From: Amoebophrya sp. A120
Lineage: Eukaryota; Protista; Dinoflagellata
Reading direction: 5' to 3'
DNA: 6,632 bases
Assembly (NCBI GenBank): GCA_905178155.1
Contig: CAJINV010000108.1
Span: forward strand, 1 to 6,632
The notes under the pieces were generated by a model. It ran no database searches. It had not been told where the DNA came from and was given only the letters and a program-made list of their open reading frames with translations. The position numbers and the translations under genes were made by a program. Below, piece by piece: positions 255-6,632 of this stretch. Position 1 is the first letter of the stretch. Every line of letters begins with the position of its first letter.

Positions 255-317
255 TATTCCATGCAAAAGTATCGCACTCGTATAAATCCAGGCCTATTTT
301 GCTCCATGATAAAACTT

Positions 318-420
318 AGAAGTTGGTGGGAAGTTGTTGAGAAGTAGGTGGGGAAGTGGGTGGGGAAGTGGGTGAGAAGTCGGCGCCGAAGTTGGTGTGG
401 AAGCCGGTGAGAAGTGGCAG
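318..420 (+). repeat. Subterminal array of 9 x 11-12-bp RGAAGTYGGTG-like units
   Basis: Units start at 318, 329, 340, 352, 364, 375, 387, 399 and 410. Confidence 0.9.
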
Positions 421-891
421 GGTGTGTTGGCGTCGTCATCGCCTCGACCGAGTGGCGTGGCACGTCACTCCACCGCGGCGAGTTCTACCGCCTTCGCTGC
501 CTGCAGCTGCAGCTGCAAGGGTTGGAAGGAAAATTTGCGCAGCAGATGAATAGACAGACGGCCAGTGTCATTGTTTTCATTCATCTGCGGCGCAGTTCGA
601 CCAGTTCGCGCCACGGCATCAGGCTCAGCGAAGACTTAGAGAAGAGGAAGCAAAAGGTGCATCTGTGATGGCTGCACGCAAAGATGCAAGAACGGACGAA
701 ATAAAGCTGCGCGCGACCTTGTGGAGTCGGGGCTGCGCGCCGACCTCTGAACAACTTCTCAACAACTTCTCCAGCAATATATTACTCAAATTCATTAACT
801 TCGCCAACGCCTTTGCTTTTCTTTTGGGAAAAAATGCAGCTTTGCGTGTGACCTACACAGTTTACAGCATTTTTTCCTCCGCAGCTTCTCA

Positions 892-958
892 ACAACTTCT
901 CAACAACTTCTCGACCAACATATCCGAGATATTTGGCGAGAAGCTGTTGAGAAGTTGT
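892..958. repeat. Internal long hairpin built from GAGAAGTTGTT units
   Basis: ACAACTTCTCAACAACTTCTCGaCCAAcATATC-cga-GATATTTGGCGAGAAGCTGTTGAGAAGTTGT forms a stem of about 31 bp with one mismatch and two bulges. Further minus-strand units at about 751-771. Confidence 0.85.
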
Positions 959-1266
959 CGCGCAATTCATCCCCTCGAGAGTGCTCTGCTTTTGCCAAAA
1001 GCCCACTTTTGGAAGCGCAAAACATTTCTGCAAAAGCAGGCGCTGGAGCTCCCGCAGCGCTCACATTTGCGCGGAGGCGCGACCAAAGTATGCACAGCCA
1101 AACTGATTCGTGACCGCGCACGCGGCCACGAATCGAGATCCGGAAAACTCGCGAGACACCAGCCAAAGGCCGGTAGCTAGAGAAATTGGCGCGCCTAAAG
1201 TAAGCGGAAATCCGTACCAAGTCCCCGAACAAACCCTCCCCCCGACTCCCGCCAACTCAACAGCTG

Positions 1267-1352
1267 GGAAGTTGGTGAAAAGACTGGGGAGAAGATGGTG
1301 AGAAGTTGGTGGGAAGTTGGTTGAGACTACGTGAGAAGTCGGTGAGAAGTTG
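1267..1352 (+). repeat. Second subterminal array of about 8 RGAAGTYGGTG-like units
   Basis: Units at 1267, 1278, 1290, 1301, 1312, 1324, 1334 and about 1345, on the same strand as the left array. Confidence 0.85.
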
Positions 1353-1414
1353 CAAAAAGGTTTCATGCGTAAAAAGGTCGGATTTATACGAGTGCGATAC
1401 TTTTGCACAGGATA

Positions 1415-1592: not shown

Positions 1593-2384
1593 NNNNNNNN
1601 NNNNNNNNNNNNNNNNNNNNNNNNNNNNNNNNNNNNNNNNNNNNNNNNNNNNNNNNNNNNNNNNNNNNNNNNNNNNNNNNNNNNNNNNNNNNNNNNNNNN
1701 NNNNNNNNNNNNNNNNNNNNNNNNNNNNNNNNNNNNNNNNNNNNNNNNNNNNNNNNNNNNNNNNNNNNNNNNNNNNNNNNNNNNNNNNNNNNNNNNNNNN
1801 NNNNNNNNNNNNNNNNNNNNNNNNNNNNNNNNNNNNNNNNNNNNNNNNNNNNNNNNNNNNNNNNNNNNNNNNNNNNNNNNNNNNNNNNNNNNNNNNNNNN
1901 NNNNNNNNNNNNNNNNNNNNNNNNNNNNNNNNNNNNNNNNNNNNNNNNNNNNNNNNNNNNNNNNNNNNNNNNNNNNNNNNNNNNNNNNNNNNNNNNNNNN
2001 NNNNNNNNNNNNNNNNNNNNNNNNNNNNNNNNNNNNNNNNNNNNNNNNNNNNNNNNNNNNNNNNNNNNNNNNNNNNNNNNNNNNNNNNNNNNNNNNNNNN
2101 NNNNNNNNNNNNNNNNNNNNNNNNNNNNNNNNNNNNNNNNNNNNNNNNNNNNNNNNNNNNNNNNNNNNNNNNNNNNNNNNNNNNNNNNNNNNNNNNNNNN
2201 NNNNNNNNNNNNNNNNNNNNNNNNNNNNNNNNNNNNNNNNNNNNNNNNNNNNNNNNNNNNNNNNNNNNNNNNNNNNNNNNNNNNNNNNNNNNNNNNNNNN
2301 NNNNNNNNNNNNNNNNNNNNNNNNNNNNNNNNNNNNNNNNNNNNNNNNNNNNNNNNNNNNNNNNNNNNNNNNNNNNNNNNNNNN
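1593..2384. other. Assembly gap (792 N)
   Basis: Run of N characters. Confidence 1.
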
Positions 2385-4363
2385 CGGCATCGCAACGGAT
2401 TTGGCGGCGCTGGGGACCTATCAAATGCAAATATCCCTGGATGTCTGGAAGAGTGTAGACTTGTCATGCAGCCTTTCCATGTTGACCCCTGAGGTCTGGA
2501 ATTATGCGGGACCTAGCATGACAGAGTCTACTGTGAGGTCTCTGTCATGCCTATTTTACATGGGAAACTCCCTGTCACCTTGGCCAAAAGTAGAAGAGCC
2601 TTCGGCACTCATGCAACACAGATTCTTGCGTGATGCGGATTTAGCATGACAACTTGCATCCTTCCAGCCCCAGACCTATTTGCAATGCATAGGACCAGAT
2701 GGGCGGGCTGTTCAACGCCTTCGCCAGCGCCCTGGTCCTGTATTACCGTGAAAAATGCCCCCACTCCCAAGGTTGCAAAAATTTGTGATGTGAAGTTTCC
2801 AAATGAAAACTTTTTGTCATGCATGCGCATGCATGAAAGGAGTACGAATCTTTCTGATGCAGAGTCAGACGTGTGTCGCATCGCTTGCAACTGCACAGCT
2901 TGCATGACAAGGGCCGCTCTTGCTGGGATCTTTTGCAGTACAGATTTTTGCTATTTAAGATTGGAATTCTGTGATGCTGATAGATGCAAGAGGGCGAATG
3001 TTTCACTTGGAAAGGTCTGCAATACAAATGCTCCCAAGTTGGTTCGGGGGTGGGGGCATTTTTCATTGTAATATCCTGAAAGCGCTGTTCTTCGTGGTTC
3101 CGGCCCCAGGCGGAGGGGACGAAGACACCAGCGTCCTGGCGAAAGTATCAAATGTAAAAATGTCTGGGTCTGGAAGATTCTAAACTTGTAATGCTGTCTC
3201 TGGATTCTAGAAAAATTTGTATTGCATGACCAGCAAAATAAGGACTCCAGTGTGTGCTACGTGGAGAGAGCATTATTTCTCATGTGCTAGAGGCATCACA
3301 AAGTCCTCTAACAATCTGTGATGCTACGGCATGCATCACAGACATCATGGGTCATTCAAAATATGCATGACAAACCTGGCAAACTTCCAGCCCCAGACAT
3401 TTTTGCATTCGATAGAAAGCGCTCCAAGACCACCAGCACATGGTTTCACCCACGAACGTATCAAATGTAAAAATGTCTGGGTCTGGAAGAGTCATGCTGT
3501 TTTTGCATGACACAGAAGGTCTGGCATGGAAGCTCTAGCATCACAGGTTTTGAGAACCTTCCGCAATGCCGAATCCGCATGACAAGTCCCCTATTTTGGT
3601 GGCAAAAAGTGGGAGCTTTTGCTACGTATGCATGAGAGACTTTTCTGTGTTCTGAAATACGCATTACAAGTTGCATTCTTCCAAACCCAGACATTTTTAC
3701 ATTTGATAGAACGAAAACGGCAAGAATAATATTGGCTTCTTGCTTCCGAGTATCGTACGAAAAAAGTGTTTCACTGTGATGACTTTGCAAGATCTGCATC
3801 ACAAGTTTGCTACACATGACTGAAAATTTGTGATGCGCGCTTCCCAAGGGAAAACACGCTTGCAAATCCAATGCCTTGCTGGTGTAGCAAGCCAGAGAGT
3901 TCTGTGTTCCATTTTCTGCATCACAAGTTCACAGTGAAACAGTTTTTTCTCACGATACCGAGCACCGAGAAGCTCCGAGAGGTCGCGCAGCAGCTGAAAT
4001 CGAAGCAACAAGTATCGACCTCCACGCGAAGGAGGAGTCTACAACCACTTTCGTATGCACTGCAAATATGTCTGGGTCTGGAAAGTTGGAACTTGTAATG
4101 CTAGCTTTACATTCCTGGGATGAAATCTGTATTGCATAACCGACAAATAAAGCCGCACCCATTTTTGTCATGCAAAAACGCAGTTTCTCGTGTGGGCTGC
4201 CTATGAGAAAGTGCTCCGGATGAAAGTTGTCATGCTGGTCTGCATTCGGAAGTGTTTCCATCATGCACATTTTAGCATCACAAGTTTCCAGACCCAGCTA
4301 TATTTGCAATCCATATTTCTGGGGCCACTACAACAAATCCAGTTCCTAAGGTCGTCGAGAAAG
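2385..4363 (+). CDS. Partial spliced gene or pseudogene, putative fucosyltransferase-like (GT-B) glycosyltransferase. Exons 2385-2418, 2697-2740, 3079-3145, 3420-3458, 3714-3750, 3963-4053, 4321-4363
   Basis: Removing six TIR elements plus one TSD each gives 118 stop-free codons: RHRNGFGGAGDQMGGLFNAFASALVLKALFFVVPAPGGGDEDTSVLAKALQDHQHMVSPTNENGKNNIGFLLPSTEKLREVAQQLKSKQQVSTSTRRRSLQPLSGATTTNPVPKVVEK. GGAGDQMGG..AF..AL....FFV resembles the N-terminal G-x-G-[ND]-[QR] motif of GT11/GT23/GT37/O-FucT-type enzymes. The product was recognised by eye only. Confidence 0.7.
2419..2691. mobile_element. MITE/Introner-like element, family A (273 bp, TSD GGACC)
   Basis: Left end TATCAAATGCAAATATCCCTGGATGTCTGGAAG; right end (revcomp) TATGCATTGCAAATAGGTCTGGGGCTGGAAG. 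GGACC at 2414-2418 and 2692-2696. Confidence 0.9.
2741..3073. mobile_element. MITE/Introner-like element, family B (333 bp, TSD TCCTG)
   Basis: Left TATTACCGTGAAAAATGCCCCCACTCCC; right (revcomp) TATTACAATGAAAAATGCCCCCACCCCC. TCCTG at 2736-2740 and 3074-3078. Confidence 0.93.
3146..3414. mobile_element. MITE/Introner-like element, family A (269 bp, TSD GAAAG)
   Basis: Left TATCAAATGTAAAAATGTCTGGGTCTGGAAG; right (revcomp) TATCGAATGCAAAAATGTCTGGGGCTGGAAG. GAAAG at 3141-3145 and 3415-3419. Confidence 0.95.
3459..3708. mobile_element. MITE/Introner-like element, family A (250 bp, TSD GAACG)
   Basis: Left TATCAAATGTAAAAATGTCTGGGTCTGGAAGA; right (revcomp) TATCAAATGTAAAAATGTCTGGGTTTGGAAGA. GAACG at 3454-3458 and 3709-3713. 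Confidence 0.95.
3751..3957. mobile_element. MITE/Introner-like element, family C (207 bp, TSD CCGAG)
   Basis: Left TATCGTACGAAAAAAGTGTTTCACTGTG; right (revcomp) TATCGTGAGAAAAAACTGTTTCACTGTG. CCGAG at 3746-3750 and 3958-3962. Confidence 0.93.
4054..4315. mobile_element. MITE/Introner-like element, family A (262 bp, TSD TTTCG/TTTCT)
   Basis: Left TATGCACTGCAAATATGTCTGGGTCTGGAAA; right (revcomp) TATGGATTGCAAATATAGCTGGGTCTGGAAA. TSD matches at 4 of 5 positions (4049-4053, 4316-4320). Confidence 0.88.
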
Positions 4364-4861
4364 TTACCGTGAGGAAAAATCCCTCCTCCCAATAGTGAAA
4401 ACGTATGTTCCTAAAAATTTGTGATGCTGATTTGTGAGCACAAATCCTGTCTCTCTTGCAAGAAGGCAAGTCCAAAGAATTCGCCGCCTTATGGATGCGA
4501 TTTGTAATGCTGTTTCACTTACATGGAGAGCCTCCGTCATGCTAAGTGCCTACAACAAAACACCCCTAAGTGCCTACATTTTTAAGCGCGTCGTTGTTGC
4601 TTCTTCAGAGGTGGACAAGCGGAACAAGGACGTCGAAAGGAAAAGAGGTGGATAGTACTGGTTTCAGAATGTGAATGTAGTTTCTAGTTTGATGTGGCGC
4701 TACAACCTAATAGAAGTTCTACAAGAAATAGAAACACCTACGACGCCGCGTTATTCATCTTATGTGATGTGCCTGCACCCACTACACTCGCGTAGTGTAG
4801 CCTTACCTGCTTCGGTTGTAATGCTTGACCTTCTTGATTCAACAAAATTTTGTATCTCATA
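4364..4861. mobile_element. Degenerate or chimeric element region: family-B-like left end, unmatched right end
   Basis: TTACCGTGAGGAAAAATCCCTCCTCCCAA at 4364 resembles the family B left TIR, but no matching right TIR was found. TTTTGTATCTCATA ending at 4861 (revcomp TATGAGATACAAAA) fits the shared terminal consensus. No TSD pair. Confidence 0.5.
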
Positions 4862-5483
4862 CCCTCCTTCGATATTTTCGGAAAAAGTACCAAAGCGGGC
4901 CATTACAAGTACTTTCGGGTCTTCAAGATTCCGAGCAACGGCTATCCACATTACTTAAATTTCCCGTACGCCTTCGGAGAAAGAAATGCTGTTTCTGCGT
5001 GATGACAATCCTATTCAGCATGGCAAGTGGTGGCACACAGCCCTAAGGTGGGAAGTTTGTCATGCATTTTTGTCAACGTCGACCTCGATGCGTACGGGAA
5101 ATTTGTATTGCATAACAGCAAGCCCTTGCGAATGGCGGGCCGGAATAACGACGAATTTCTCGGGAGGTGCCAGTACTGGTTTGGCCGGGACAGCGTAGAG
5201 CCAGCAGCTCCTGTGAAAGGAGGCGGCGCCGATGCCAATGTGCCGGGTACAGGAGGAACAAACGCGGTGAAAGAAGACGGTGGAAACGCGGAGGATTTGG
5301 AAGCTTGTCAGCTCTTCCATTTGCGACTCGGTGAACCACACATTGCACCGACCAATCTGGTGCGAAACTACTTCAGCGGGTTTTTTCTATGATGTTGATG
5401 AGAAAATTGAAAAAGATAAAGATGCTGAGCAGATAGTGATAGTGAGCTGCAGGCAAACAACCGAGCGTCAGAATCTCTTTTAG
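4862..5483 (+). pseudogene. Probable downstream coding segments of the same glycosyltransferase-like gene (about 4862-4942 joined to 5120-5392, frameshift near 5381-5386)
   Basis: Removing element 4943-5114 plus one TSD gives PSFDIFGKSTKAGHYKYFRVFKIPSNGKPLRMAGRNNDEFLGRCQYWFGRDSVEP...EDLEACQLFHLRLGEPHIAPTNLVRNYFSGFF. HLRLG fits the H-x-R-x-G GDP-fucose-binding motif. One fewer T at 5381-5386 continues into YDVDEKIEKDKDAEQIVIVSCRQ. The frame of 4862-4942 is less certain. Confidence 0.55.
4943..5114. mobile_element. MITE/Introner-like element, family D (172 bp, TSD ACGGC/ACAGC)
   Basis: Inverted core AAATTTCCCGTACGC at about 4957-4971 and 5090-5104. Termini TAT 4943 and ATA 5114. TSD matches at 4 of 5 positions (4938-4942, 5115-5119). 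Confidence 0.8.
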
Positions 5484-5760
5484 TTTCAGCAATAAGCTGC
5501 TCCACGTCGTGGTCGTGAGAAAACCTACGAGGTAGGACGAGTCGCTACTGTTGAAAATGGCTTGTTGACACCTACTTCATCACAGGCGCCTGCTGAACAA
5601 GTATGCTGAGCGTGGAGATGAATGCGTCGTGTTCATCGTTATGTTCTGATGTTGTTCTTCTTCTTACTCTTAGCTTGCGCGATATCTGGCTGTTCGTTGT
5701 CCTCGTGTGTCGTACACTACGTCCGAAGAACTGCGGTGTTGATAAAATGGCAGATGGTAG

Positions 5761-6629
5761 GACACTGCCACTGTACTAAAAGACAAAGAGGATACCAAGG
5801 AGAACGATGATGCTGCTTCTTCAGAGGTGGACAAGCGGAACAAGGACGTCGAACGGAAAAAACATAGGCGGCATCGCAACGGATTTGGCGGCGCTGGGGA
5901 CCTATCAAATGCAAATATCCCTGGATGTCTGGAAGAGTGTAGACTTGTCATGCAGCCTTTCCATGTTGACCCCTGAGGTCTGGAATTATGCGGGACCTAG
6001 CATGACAGAGTCTACTGTGAGGTCTCTGTCATGCCTATTTTACATGGGAAACTCCCTGTCACCTTGGCCAAAAGTAGAAGAGCCTTCGGCACTCATGCAA
6101 CACAGATTCTTGCGTGATGCGGATTTAGCATGACAACTTGCATCCTTCCAGCCCCAGACCTATTTGCAATGCATAGGACCAGATGGGCGGGCTGTTCAAC
6201 GCCTTCGCCAGCGCCCTGGTCCTGTATTACCGTGAAAAATGCCCCCACTCCCAAGGTTGCAAAAATTTGTGATGTGAAGTTTCCAAATGAAAACTTTTTG
6301 TCATGCATGCGCATGCATGAAAGGAGTACGAATCTTTCTGATGCAGAGTCAGACGTGTGTCGCATCGCTTGCAACTGCACAGCTTGCATGACAAGGGCCG
6401 CTCTTGCTGGGATCTTTTGCAGTACAGATTTTTGCTATTTAAGATTGGAATTCTGTGATGCTGATAGATGCAAGAGGGCGAATGTTTCACTTGGAAAGGT
6501 CTGCAATACAAATGCTCCCAAGTTGGTTCGGGGGTGGGGGCATTTTTCATTGTAATATCCTGAAAGCGCTGTTCTTCGTGGTTCCGGCCCCAGGCGGAGG
6601 GGACGAAGACACCAGCGTCCTGGCGAAAG
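5761..6629 (+). CDS. Second copy of the spliced gene, partial. Exons about 5761-5902, 6181-6224, 6563-6629
   Basis: DTATVLKDKEDTKENDDAASSEVDKRNKDVERKKHRRHRNGFGGAGDQMGGLFNAFASALVLKALFFVVPAPGGGDEDTSVLAK. The frame opens just after TAG 5758-5760, a possible acceptor. No start codon identified. Confidence 0.6.
5903..6175. mobile_element. Family A element, duplicate of 2419-2691
   Basis: Same sequence; TSD GGACC at 5898-5902 and 6176-6180. Confidence 0.9.
6225..6557. mobile_element. Family B element, duplicate of 2741-3073
   Basis: Same sequence; TSD TCCTG at 6220-6224 and 6558-6562. Confidence 0.93.
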
Positions 6630-6632
6630 TAT

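What the first reader, a model, noticed from the sequence alone, without database searches (positions are those of the whole stretch)
2385..5392. Hidden gene whose introns are all MITEs: Introner-like elements from four families restore an ORF when excised with one TSD
Seen: seven TIR elements (172-333 bp) with 5-bp TSDs are separated by spacers, which are 37-91 bp between the first six. Excising element plus one TSD joins seven spacers into 118 stop-free codons, extended by 36 more upstream in copy 2. Established: short DNA transposons (Introners) create introns en masse in Micromonas and Aureococcus, and non-canonical introns with inverted repeats and short direct repeats are described in Amoebophrya. 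Inference: these elements are removed at the RNA level. Insertions into an already dead gene would also rejoin in frame, so the ORF alone does not prove splicing. The gene is invisible to the ORF track and to canonical gene finders.
Basis: partly seen in the sequence, partly recalled or inferred. Interest (0 to 1): 0.92.

Follow-up and report, generated by a model that had tools for sequence, protein, structure and literature searches.

The report
Transposon introns in Amoebophrya parasite genes
Seven small hairpin-ended, transposon-like elements interrupt two neighbouring genes of what is likely the marine parasite Amoebophrya, and assemblies of runs that are likely RNA lack each element plus five bases, so they likely act as introns without normal splice signals, a habit already described for this genus.

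Summary
Confirmed, but already known. Seven elements (172-333 bp, TAT…ATA inverted ends, 5-bp direct repeats) lie where reported. Contigs of three probable RNA runs (one study; RNA status is the tool's guess) lack element plus 5 nt at 7 of 7 sites, while DNA-like runs keep the borders. The end motif, repeat length and splice pairs match the introner elements described for Amoebophrya A120 (PMC7789003). The last exons are homologous to an Amoebophrya AT5 protein. In a related assembly, a similar element interrupts RPB1, and removing it plus 5 nt restores the conserved sequence. Corrections: the region holds two genes, not one, and copy 1 is likely a truncated tandem duplicate ending in a half element that is retained in RNA. 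Possible addition: two imperfect repeats and one repeat-less joint place the cut 1-2 nt before the first TA and 3-4 nt after the last ATA, a position the paper's Fig. 3 leaves unknown. This scan noted similar introns in other dinoflagellate DNA.

The parts
2385..4364 (+). Gene G, copy 1: seven short exons (2385-2413, 2692-2735, 3074-3140, 3415-3453, 3709-3745, 3958-4048, 4316-4364); product of unknown family, with a hydrophobic stretch just after the first Met (possible signal peptide, inferred)
   Evidence: Joints. The 283-nt contigs of X5 and X6 equal the sum of five exons. Codon model +15.8 for + frame vs -3.3 for the open antisense frame. Hydropathy.
2419..2691 (.). E1 introner element, 273 bp, direct repeat GGACC; lies just upstream of the first in-frame ATG
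   Evidence: joint; relatives at about 81% in fetched loci
2741..3073 (.). E2 introner element, 333 bp, direct repeat TCCTG, a different TIR family
3146..3414 (.). E3 introner element, 269 bp, direct repeat GAAAG
3459..3708 (.). E4 introner element, 250 bp, direct repeat GAACG, 24 of 24 TIR match; closest relative 94.8% identical
   Evidence: hairpin -101.7 kcal/mol, z -7.7
3751..3957 (.). E5 introner element, 207 bp, direct repeat CCGAG, third TIR family
4054..4315 (.). E6 introner element, 262 bp, imperfect repeat (TTTCG / TTTCT); the joint keeps the downstream last base, so the cut lies after at most 4 repeat bases
4365..4585 (.). E8: left ~200-220 bp of a 321-329 bp element family (starts TAC), no matching right end in the window; retained in probable RNA contigs
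   Evidence: 81% identity over 196 nt to an intact copy in L035; contigs 4335-4581 in X5 and X6, 4316-4615 in X7
4583..4861 (.). Stretch from a TA at 4583 to an orphan right-end motif at 4861 (likely the right part of an element whose left part lies beyond the duplication breakpoint); removed with 5 extra nt in part of the contigs, with no direct repeat and no TIR match
   Evidence: joint 4580>4865 in X5 (depth 45) and X6 (10.6), not in X7's contigs; geometry
4866..5392 (+). Gene T: last two exons (4866-4940, 5118-5392 with stop) of a gene homologous to an uncharacterised Amoebophrya AT5 protein
   Evidence: (44% over 93 aa, no gap at the E7 junction)
4943..5114 (.). E7 introner element, 172 bp, decayed TIR, imperfect repeat (ACGGC / ACAGC); the joint keeps the upstream third base, so the cut lies after at least 3 repeat bases
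   Evidence: (fold z -2.5)
5761..6632 (+). Gene G, copy 2 (5869-6632 identical to 2385-3148, with E1b 5903-6175 and E2b 6225-6557); runs off the window and is likely the complete copy
   Evidence: loose end behind 4364 in X5 shows exon 7 joined to sequence not in the laid stretch

Best explanation
These are short inverted-repeat elements with 5-bp flanking repeats, likely non-autonomous DNA transposons of the Amoebophrya A120-type introner kind, that sit in coding exons and are likely removed from the pre-mRNA as non-canonical introns, together with exactly five flanking bases, so that the reading frame is restored. Insertion likely duplicates 5 bp of exon (shown: the repeats; inferred: transposition). 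The transcript folds each element into a long hairpin that brings the two TA ends together (predicted). The cut is likely made at fixed distances from those ends, 1-2 nt before the first TA and 3-4 nt after the last ATA (shown for three informative joints), whatever the bases there are. The two offsets sum to five, which cancels the duplication. The likely catalyst is the host's modified major spliceosome, in which U1 snRNA was not found (inferred from PMC7789003; about 55%). At this locus the elements interrupt two co-oriented genes. A tandem duplication with its breakpoint near 4585 likely left copy 1 of gene G truncated inside a half element that is not spliced.
For: Joints equal to element + 5 nt at 7 of 7 elements in probable RNA contigs; record coordinates and contig lengths leave no room for extra letters at E3-E7. 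In X1 and X3, which behave as DNA (flat depth over intergenic DNA, element depth in the tens to hundreds of thousands in X1), unbroken contigs with 0 other letters cross the E1 3', E2 5', E3 3', E6 3', E7 5' and E7 3' borders with at least 31 letters each side. X7 holds both the spliced (18.4) and a minor unspliced (2.75) form of E7. In 146 fetched loci, 154 of 188 elements have a perfect 5-bp repeat and 23 have one mismatch; shuffled pairing gives a mean of 1, maximum 5. Reading phase, called separately on each flank, is restored by element + 5 at 31 of 33 elements with same-strand calls. A similar element lies in an invariant stretch of RPB1 in L066, and only +5 restores it without adding a gap. 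Removing E7 gives an alignment to an Amoebophrya AT5 protein with no gap at the junction. The end motif TAT + 7 + AAA matches the A120 description, and 4 of the 7 window splice pairs at register 4 are among the 9 predominant A120 pairs of Table S4. Only 3 of 64 strand-called elements allow GT-AG in any register.
Against: The RNA status of X5-X7 is the tool's guess; they share one sample label and one study, and are contigs, so strand, ends and levels are not shown. The joint table for the DNA-like runs was cut (136 rows not shown), so absence of joined forms there is inferred only from unbroken contigs. 12 of 45 elements with confident calls on both flanks had opposite-strand calls and were dropped from the phase count. 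The simple ORF-length test was weak (111 of 121 vs 98-106 for out-of-frame controls). No homologue of gene G was found. No evidence on the catalyst was obtained here. The repeat-less joint at 4580>4865 has no predicted pairing between its ends, so the hairpin is not needed in every case.
Confidence: 0.88

Rival explanations
1. The joints are reverse-transcriptase template-switch artefacts: the enzyme jumps across a hairpin between two short direct repeats, and the RNA in the cell keeps the elements.
For: The elements have exactly this anatomy. Such artefacts are shown for a hairpin flanked by short repeats in yeast (PMC2923612 passages). The words template switch, reverse transcript, RT-PCR and artifact do not occur in the main text of PMC7789003.
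Against: Removal is near complete at unique element interiors (depth 0 and 0.7 at 2739-2856 vs joints at 63 and 32), whereas the yeast artefact affected about 30% of products. An essential gene (RPB1) carries such an element in an invariant stretch. Phase is restored in 31 of 33. The weakly folded E7 is removed too, and one joint follows the same arithmetic with no repeat.
Confidence: 0.04
2. X5-X7 are DNA of a strain or cell type without the insertions (empty sites, or programmed DNA excision), so nothing is spliced.
For: The tool labels these runs 'RNA?' only. TA-bounded elements lost with one repeat resemble ciliate DNA excision (recalled).
Against: All seven elements, of four end types and different degrees of decay, are missing together, while the listed exon and flank contigs show 0 other letters. 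Spliced and unspliced E7 coexist in X7. Cover falls after the stop at 5392 in X6 and X7. In X3 one contig runs 4610-5112 without a break at the E7 or 4865 positions.
Confidence: 0.03
3. Removal is real, but it is done by a spliceosome-independent, hairpin-guided activity, as proposed for euglenid non-conventional introns that leave as full-length circles. This is a rival for the catalyst only.
For: No dinucleotide rule in any register. Long terminal stems. The half element E8 without its partner end is retained. U1 snRNA was not detected in A25 or A120. Euglenid precedent (PMC11282704 section 6).
Against: Nearly all spliceosomal proteins and the other snRNAs (U5 in A120 only) are present, and 35% of A120 introns are GT-AG. 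The cut lies outside the stem, and the 4580>4865 joint has no predicted end pairing.
Confidence: 0.35
4. The elements simply inserted into a dead gene, and the open frame is incidental.
For: An open frame arises by chance in 30% of resampled chains. No homologue of gene G was found. Copy 1 is probably truncated.
Against: The joints exist in probable RNA at both genes. Gene T has a homologue aligned across E7. The frame scores as coding. This reading may hold for the function of copy 1, but not for the splicing.
Confidence: 0.03

Closest known systems
Introner elements among the non-canonical introns of Amoebophrya sp. A120 (Farhat et al. 2021, PMC7789003; abstract, sections 10, 11, 12, 16, 32 read; supplement passages for Figs S19-S25 legends and Tables S4, S7; figures not seen)
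   Same: Inverted repeats starting TAT, seven free bases, then at least three A; 3-5 nt direct repeats, with four bases upstream of the 5' end; mean length about 240 nt; non-GT-AG ends including GT-AC, GT-AA, CT-AC, CT-AG; many families; RNA-supported removal.
   Different: Nothing essential. The paper's Fig. 3 legend leaves the exact intron border unknown; here three joints bound it to two registers. Whether the window is strain A120 itself was not determined.
Introners of Amoebophrya A120 in Gozashti et al. 2025 (PMC12130899; passages only)
   Same: Diverse TIR DNA transposons generating up to tens of introns in a single gene.
   Different: That paper classifies families and transfer; the passages seen do not give the cut position.
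Introners of Micromonas and Aureococcus (as described in PMC7789003 section 16)
   Same: Short elements with direct and terminal inverted repeats that create introns; one repeat copy is lost on splicing (recalled).
   Different: The Aureococcus elements keep canonical splice motifs and constant repeat lengths; here only 3 of 64 elements could be GT-AG.
Non-conventional introns of euglenids and non-canonical introns of Fritillaria borealis (review PMC11282704, section 6 read)
   Same: MITE-like origin, terminal inverted repeats, TSD-like repeats at the junctions, non-canonical ends.
   Different: Different end motifs. Fritillaria has preferred AG-AC / AG-AT ends; euglenid introns are released as circles. 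Neither feature was testable here.

Membership tests
Amoebophrya A120-type introner element | Terminal inverted repeat of at least 8-20 nt pairing the two intron ends | tested here: met
   16-24 of the first 24 bases match for E1-E5, a similar match for E6; E7 is shifted and decayed but still folds
Amoebophrya A120-type introner element | End motif TAT + 7 bases + at least three A | tested here: met
   Both ends of E1-E6 and the right end of E7 match; E7's left end has TAT without the A run; E8 starts TAC (motif)
Amoebophrya A120-type introner element | 3-5 nt direct repeat overlapping the exon-intron borders | tested here: met
   5 bp, perfect in 5 of 7 and one mismatch in 2 of 7; 177 of 188 related elements with at most one mismatch
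Amoebophrya A120-type introner element | Repeated in the genome as families | tested here: met
   E1-E6 have full-length relatives at 81-95% in the fetched loci, E7 only a 24-nt end match; very high summed depth over elements in X1
Amoebophrya A120-type introner element | Removed from RNA at non-GT-AG borders | tested here: met
   7 of 7 joints in probable RNA contigs; none of the seven allows GT-AG on the coding strand. RNA status is the tool's guess.
Amoebophrya A120-type introner element | Host is Amoebophrya | tested here: met
   The only credible homologues of gene T are an Amoebophrya AT5 protein and a near-identical transcriptome protein; strain not determined
MITE (non-autonomous TIR DNA transposon) | Short, TIR-bounded, fixed-length target duplication, no coding capacity | tested here: met
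   (5-bp repeat 154 of 188; lengths 3, 4, 6-10 at background)
MITE (non-autonomous TIR DNA transposon) | Mobilised by a cognate transposase of a known superfamily | not testable with these tools
   No genome held. PMC7789003 section 16 reports no transposase in A120; PMC12130899 passages attribute A120 introners to several transposon classes.
Spliceosomal (U2-type) intron | GT/GC...AG ends | tested here: not met
   0 of 7 GT-AG on the coding strand (E1 allows GA-AG in one register); 3 of 64 in related loci
Spliceosomal (U2-type) intron | Removal through a lariat by the spliceosome | not testable with these tools
   needs lariat sequencing or inhibition

The most novel reading that the evidence does not exclude
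The Amoebophrya splicing machine reads neither GT/AG nor the direct repeat: it finds the transposon's TA ends and cuts at fixed offsets (1-2 nt before, 3-4 nt after) that sum to the 5-bp duplication. This locus holds a natural mutant test. A duplication fused the left half of one element to the right half of another; the left half is ignored, while the orphan right end is spliced to a nearby TA with the same +5 arithmetic, although there is no repeat and no predicted hairpin.
Probability: 0.35. Interest if true: 0.65.

Novelty: already known. Interest (0 to 1): 0.3.

Why it matters
What could matter is the method: imperfect repeats and broken elements fix the cut position that perfect repeats hide. 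Applied genome-wide, this would turn the open question of how these introns are recognised without U1 snRNA or GT-AG into a testable rule, and would give gene finders a simple model (element + 5 nt).

Tried and rejected
No genome was held for the window, and the records behind L012 and L047 could not be searched, so paralogues and the continuation of copy 2 were not read. X10 and X11 (recorded RNA, raw reads) gave only 142 and 3 partial reads on element ends and did not cover the exons: uninformative. X9 (estuary metagenome, small share) was laid; the listed pieces are mostly short element pieces: no conclusion. 'No RNA holder listed' on record. A GT-donor rule suggested by the window (repeat ends in G at 5 of 7) was rejected: in 64 strand-called elements the last base is A 21, G 20, C 14, T 9. 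A minus-strand gene (E1 would be GT-AG there, and the antisense frame is open) was rejected on codon score and, for gene T, on homology. An ORF-length test of excision size discriminated poorly. The 47-aa upstream piece of gene G found no homologue among longer proteins; six window peptides had no Pfam match below E 0.1; P0122 found no longer relative. Two of four hits (P0121, P0124) are repeat-rich bacterial Ig-like proteins and were discarded as compositional. The protein atlas did not answer. An in-frame G-T fusion would result if E8's left end were joined to the 4861 end; no such joint is among those listed, and the X5/X6 contigs end at 4364 rather than 4363, but 18 joints were not shown and contigs drop rare forms. 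No structure was predicted. Searches found no paper that fixes the cut register or the catalyst in Amoebophrya; the figures of PMC7789003 (Fig. 3, S19-S25), which could not be seen, may bear on this.
Full report
Observation. All begin TAT and end ATA and are flanked by a 5-bp direct repeat, perfect at E1-E5 and with one mismatch at E6 and E7. By their ends they fall into four types (E1/E3/E4/E6, E2, E5, E7). A relaxed scan of 2385-5868 finds 7 such pairs (six elements and one nested pair; it misses E7), against 1 in 60 Markov controls. Removing element plus one repeat joins seven spacers into 118 open codons, with 36 more upstream in copy 2. That alone proves little: 30% of resampled chains are open in some frame, and the antisense frame is open as well. 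A codon model trained on exon ORFs of related loci favours the + frame (15.8 vs -3.3).

RNA evidence. One search listed 12 runs; eight were laid on 2385-5900. X5 and X6, guessed by the tool to be RNA, hold contigs with joints 2735>3074, 3140>3415, 3453>3709, 3745>3958, 4048>4316 and 4940>5118. The E1 joint appears as 2413>2692 in X5 and, in copy-2 coordinates, as 5897>2692 in X6. Every skip equals element + 5. The 283-nt contigs of X5 and X6 equal the sum of five exons, and X7's records are contiguous across E6 and E7, so no letters lie between at E3-E7. Unique element interiors are nearly uncovered (depth 0 and 0.7 at 2739-2856). X1 and X3 behave as DNA. Their contigs cross six element borders unspliced with at least 31 letters each side, and X3 has one contig from 4610 to 5112. 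Limits: the three probable RNA runs share one sample label and one study; contigs show neither strand nor level; and the joint table was cut by 136 rows. X10 and X11, recorded as RNA, did not cover the exons.

Relatives. They hold 188 distinct elements, median 262 bp; 154 have a perfect 5-bp repeat and 23 one mismatch, against a mean of 1 in shuffled pairings. E4 has a relative at 94.8%. Of 104 elements with long flanks, 45 gave frame calls on both sides, 33 on the same strand, and 31 of these 33 are in phase after removal of element + 5 (27 of 28 at the strictest margin). Of 80 exon ORFs scanned (out of 134), 13 hit Pfam, among them RPB1. An element starting like E6 sits in an invariant stretch of RPB1. 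Removing it plus 5 nt gives 25 of 25 identical residues around the junction against the closest homologue; +4, +6 and +0 break the frame, and +2 and +8 add a gap. These elements are therefore tolerated in an essential gene. Only 3 of 64 strand-called elements permit GT-AG and 6 permit G[TCA]-AG in any register, and the repeats show no preferred last base.

Organism and literature. The exon 5120-5389 found four proteins among 1.84 billion. Two are credible and align to the E7-spliced product at 44% over 93 residues with no gap at the junction. One is from Amoebophrya sp. AT5, as is the best RPB1 hit (73%; the second-ranked hit was fungal at 38%, and the next named ones were dinoflagellates). 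PMC7789003 describes for strain A120 non-canonical introns averaging 240 nt, with inverted repeats starting TAT, seven free bases and at least three A, and 3-5 nt direct repeats; 29,850 were classed as repeated introns. Four of our seven pairs at register 4 (CT-AC, GT-AA, GT-AC, CT-AG) are among its nine predominant A120 pairs. PMC12130899 notes tens of such introns in single A120 genes. PMC12005148 notes that AT5 and the Karlodinium parasite use canonical introns. The phenomenon is known; which strain the window comes from was not determined.

Anatomy of the locus. The region is not one gene. After exon 7, at 4365, begins the left ~200 bp of a 321-329 bp element family, with no matching right end in the window. 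It is retained in X5, X6 and X7. X5 also has a contig that leaves the window's sequence at 4364, as expected for a second copy in which this element is whole and spliced. X7 has a contig in which 4586 onward follows other sequence. The N-terminal 63 residues of the AT5 protein have no match in the window. I infer a tandem duplication of a 3484-bp unit with its breakpoint near 4585, which joined the left half of an element in gene G to the right part of an element in the upstream gene T. Copy 1 of G is then truncated (read-through stops at codon 129), and copy 2 is likely complete. Support is indirect: X7's contig passes the breakpoint by 30 letters, one short of the tool's bridging rule, and X1's depth here (about 80-110) is about twice that of most other-locus contigs (40-51), which the tool warns is no copy number. 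An assembly error is not excluded.

Mechanism. Perfect repeats hide the cut position; three joints do not. At E6 the joint keeps the downstream fifth base (cut after at most 4 repeat bases). At E7 it keeps the upstream third base (at least 3). A further joint, 4580>4865 (X5 depth 45, X6 10.6, absent from X7's contigs), ends 3-4 bases after the only orphan right-end motif in 2385-5868 (4861) and starts 2-1 bases before a TA at 4583. It again removes TA..ATA + 5 nt, but without any repeat, with 8 of 24 end matches and no predicted pairing. All three agree on register 3 or 4; the published 'four nucleotides upstream' and the NT donors of Table S4 point to 4. The TA coincidence has a chance of about 6%, the joint's shorter side is 29 letters, and extra letters are not excluded for it, so this is a lead from one site. 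My best reading is a modified spliceosome that recognises the element's ends and cuts at fixed offsets, with the hairpin (E4: -101.7 kcal/mol, z -7.7; E7: z -2.5) helping cognate ends find each other, since the unpaired E8 is retained. Shown: the repeats, the joints, the restored frames. Inferred: RNA-level removal (about 90%), transposition, and the catalyst (about 55% spliceosome, 35% a euglenid-like route). An RT artefact is unlikely given RPB1 and near-complete removal.

Earlier notes of this scan describe similar introns in other dinoflagellate or protist DNA, one with an acceptor set by position. They were read after my reading was formed and were not tested here.

Verdict. Real, spliced, and a known kind. 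Interest 0.3, mainly for the cut-register lead and the natural half-element test.

Noticed in passing
window 255-1414: A further, longer element (1160 bp, about 35-bp inverted ends with the same TAT motif, perfect repeat AGGAG) inside a ~141-bp tandem-repeat coding region. Removing it plus 5 nt gives an open + frame that scores as coding. Its interior has GAGAAGTT-type short repeats on both strands and a 171-codon ORF (665-1180) with no Pfam match. No reads were laid on it.
   Followed up: partly
window 4595-4644 and 5811-5860: A 50-bp, 96% identical repeat: one copy lies in the open frame upstream of gene G copy 2, the other inside the presumed element remnant 4586-4861; possibly exon sequence captured by an element. 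Unexplained.
   Followed up: no
window 1593-2384: A 792-base N gap directly before copy 1; the exact 764-bp identity of the two copies next to a gap keeps an assembly error possible.
   Followed up: partly
window 4363/4866: Joining the half element's left end to the orphan right end by the same rule would give an in-frame 234-codon fusion of genes G and T; not seen among the listed joints.
   Followed up: partly
L066-L068 (JACKZZ010011803.1): RPB1 gene broken into many pieces, at least two by TAT…ATA elements with 5-bp repeats; this assembly, held among the metagenome contigs, carries the same element families and is likely an Amoebophrya relative.
   Followed up: partly
runs X10, X5, X6 at 2607-2652 / 3146-3179: Another member of the E1/E3 family, from a different locus, is present in RNA reads (121 reads in X10), so some copies are transcribed and retained.
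   Followed up: no
L047, L069, L114, L138: Four of the 146 motif hits come from other assemblies; not examined and possibly chance matches.
   Followed up: no
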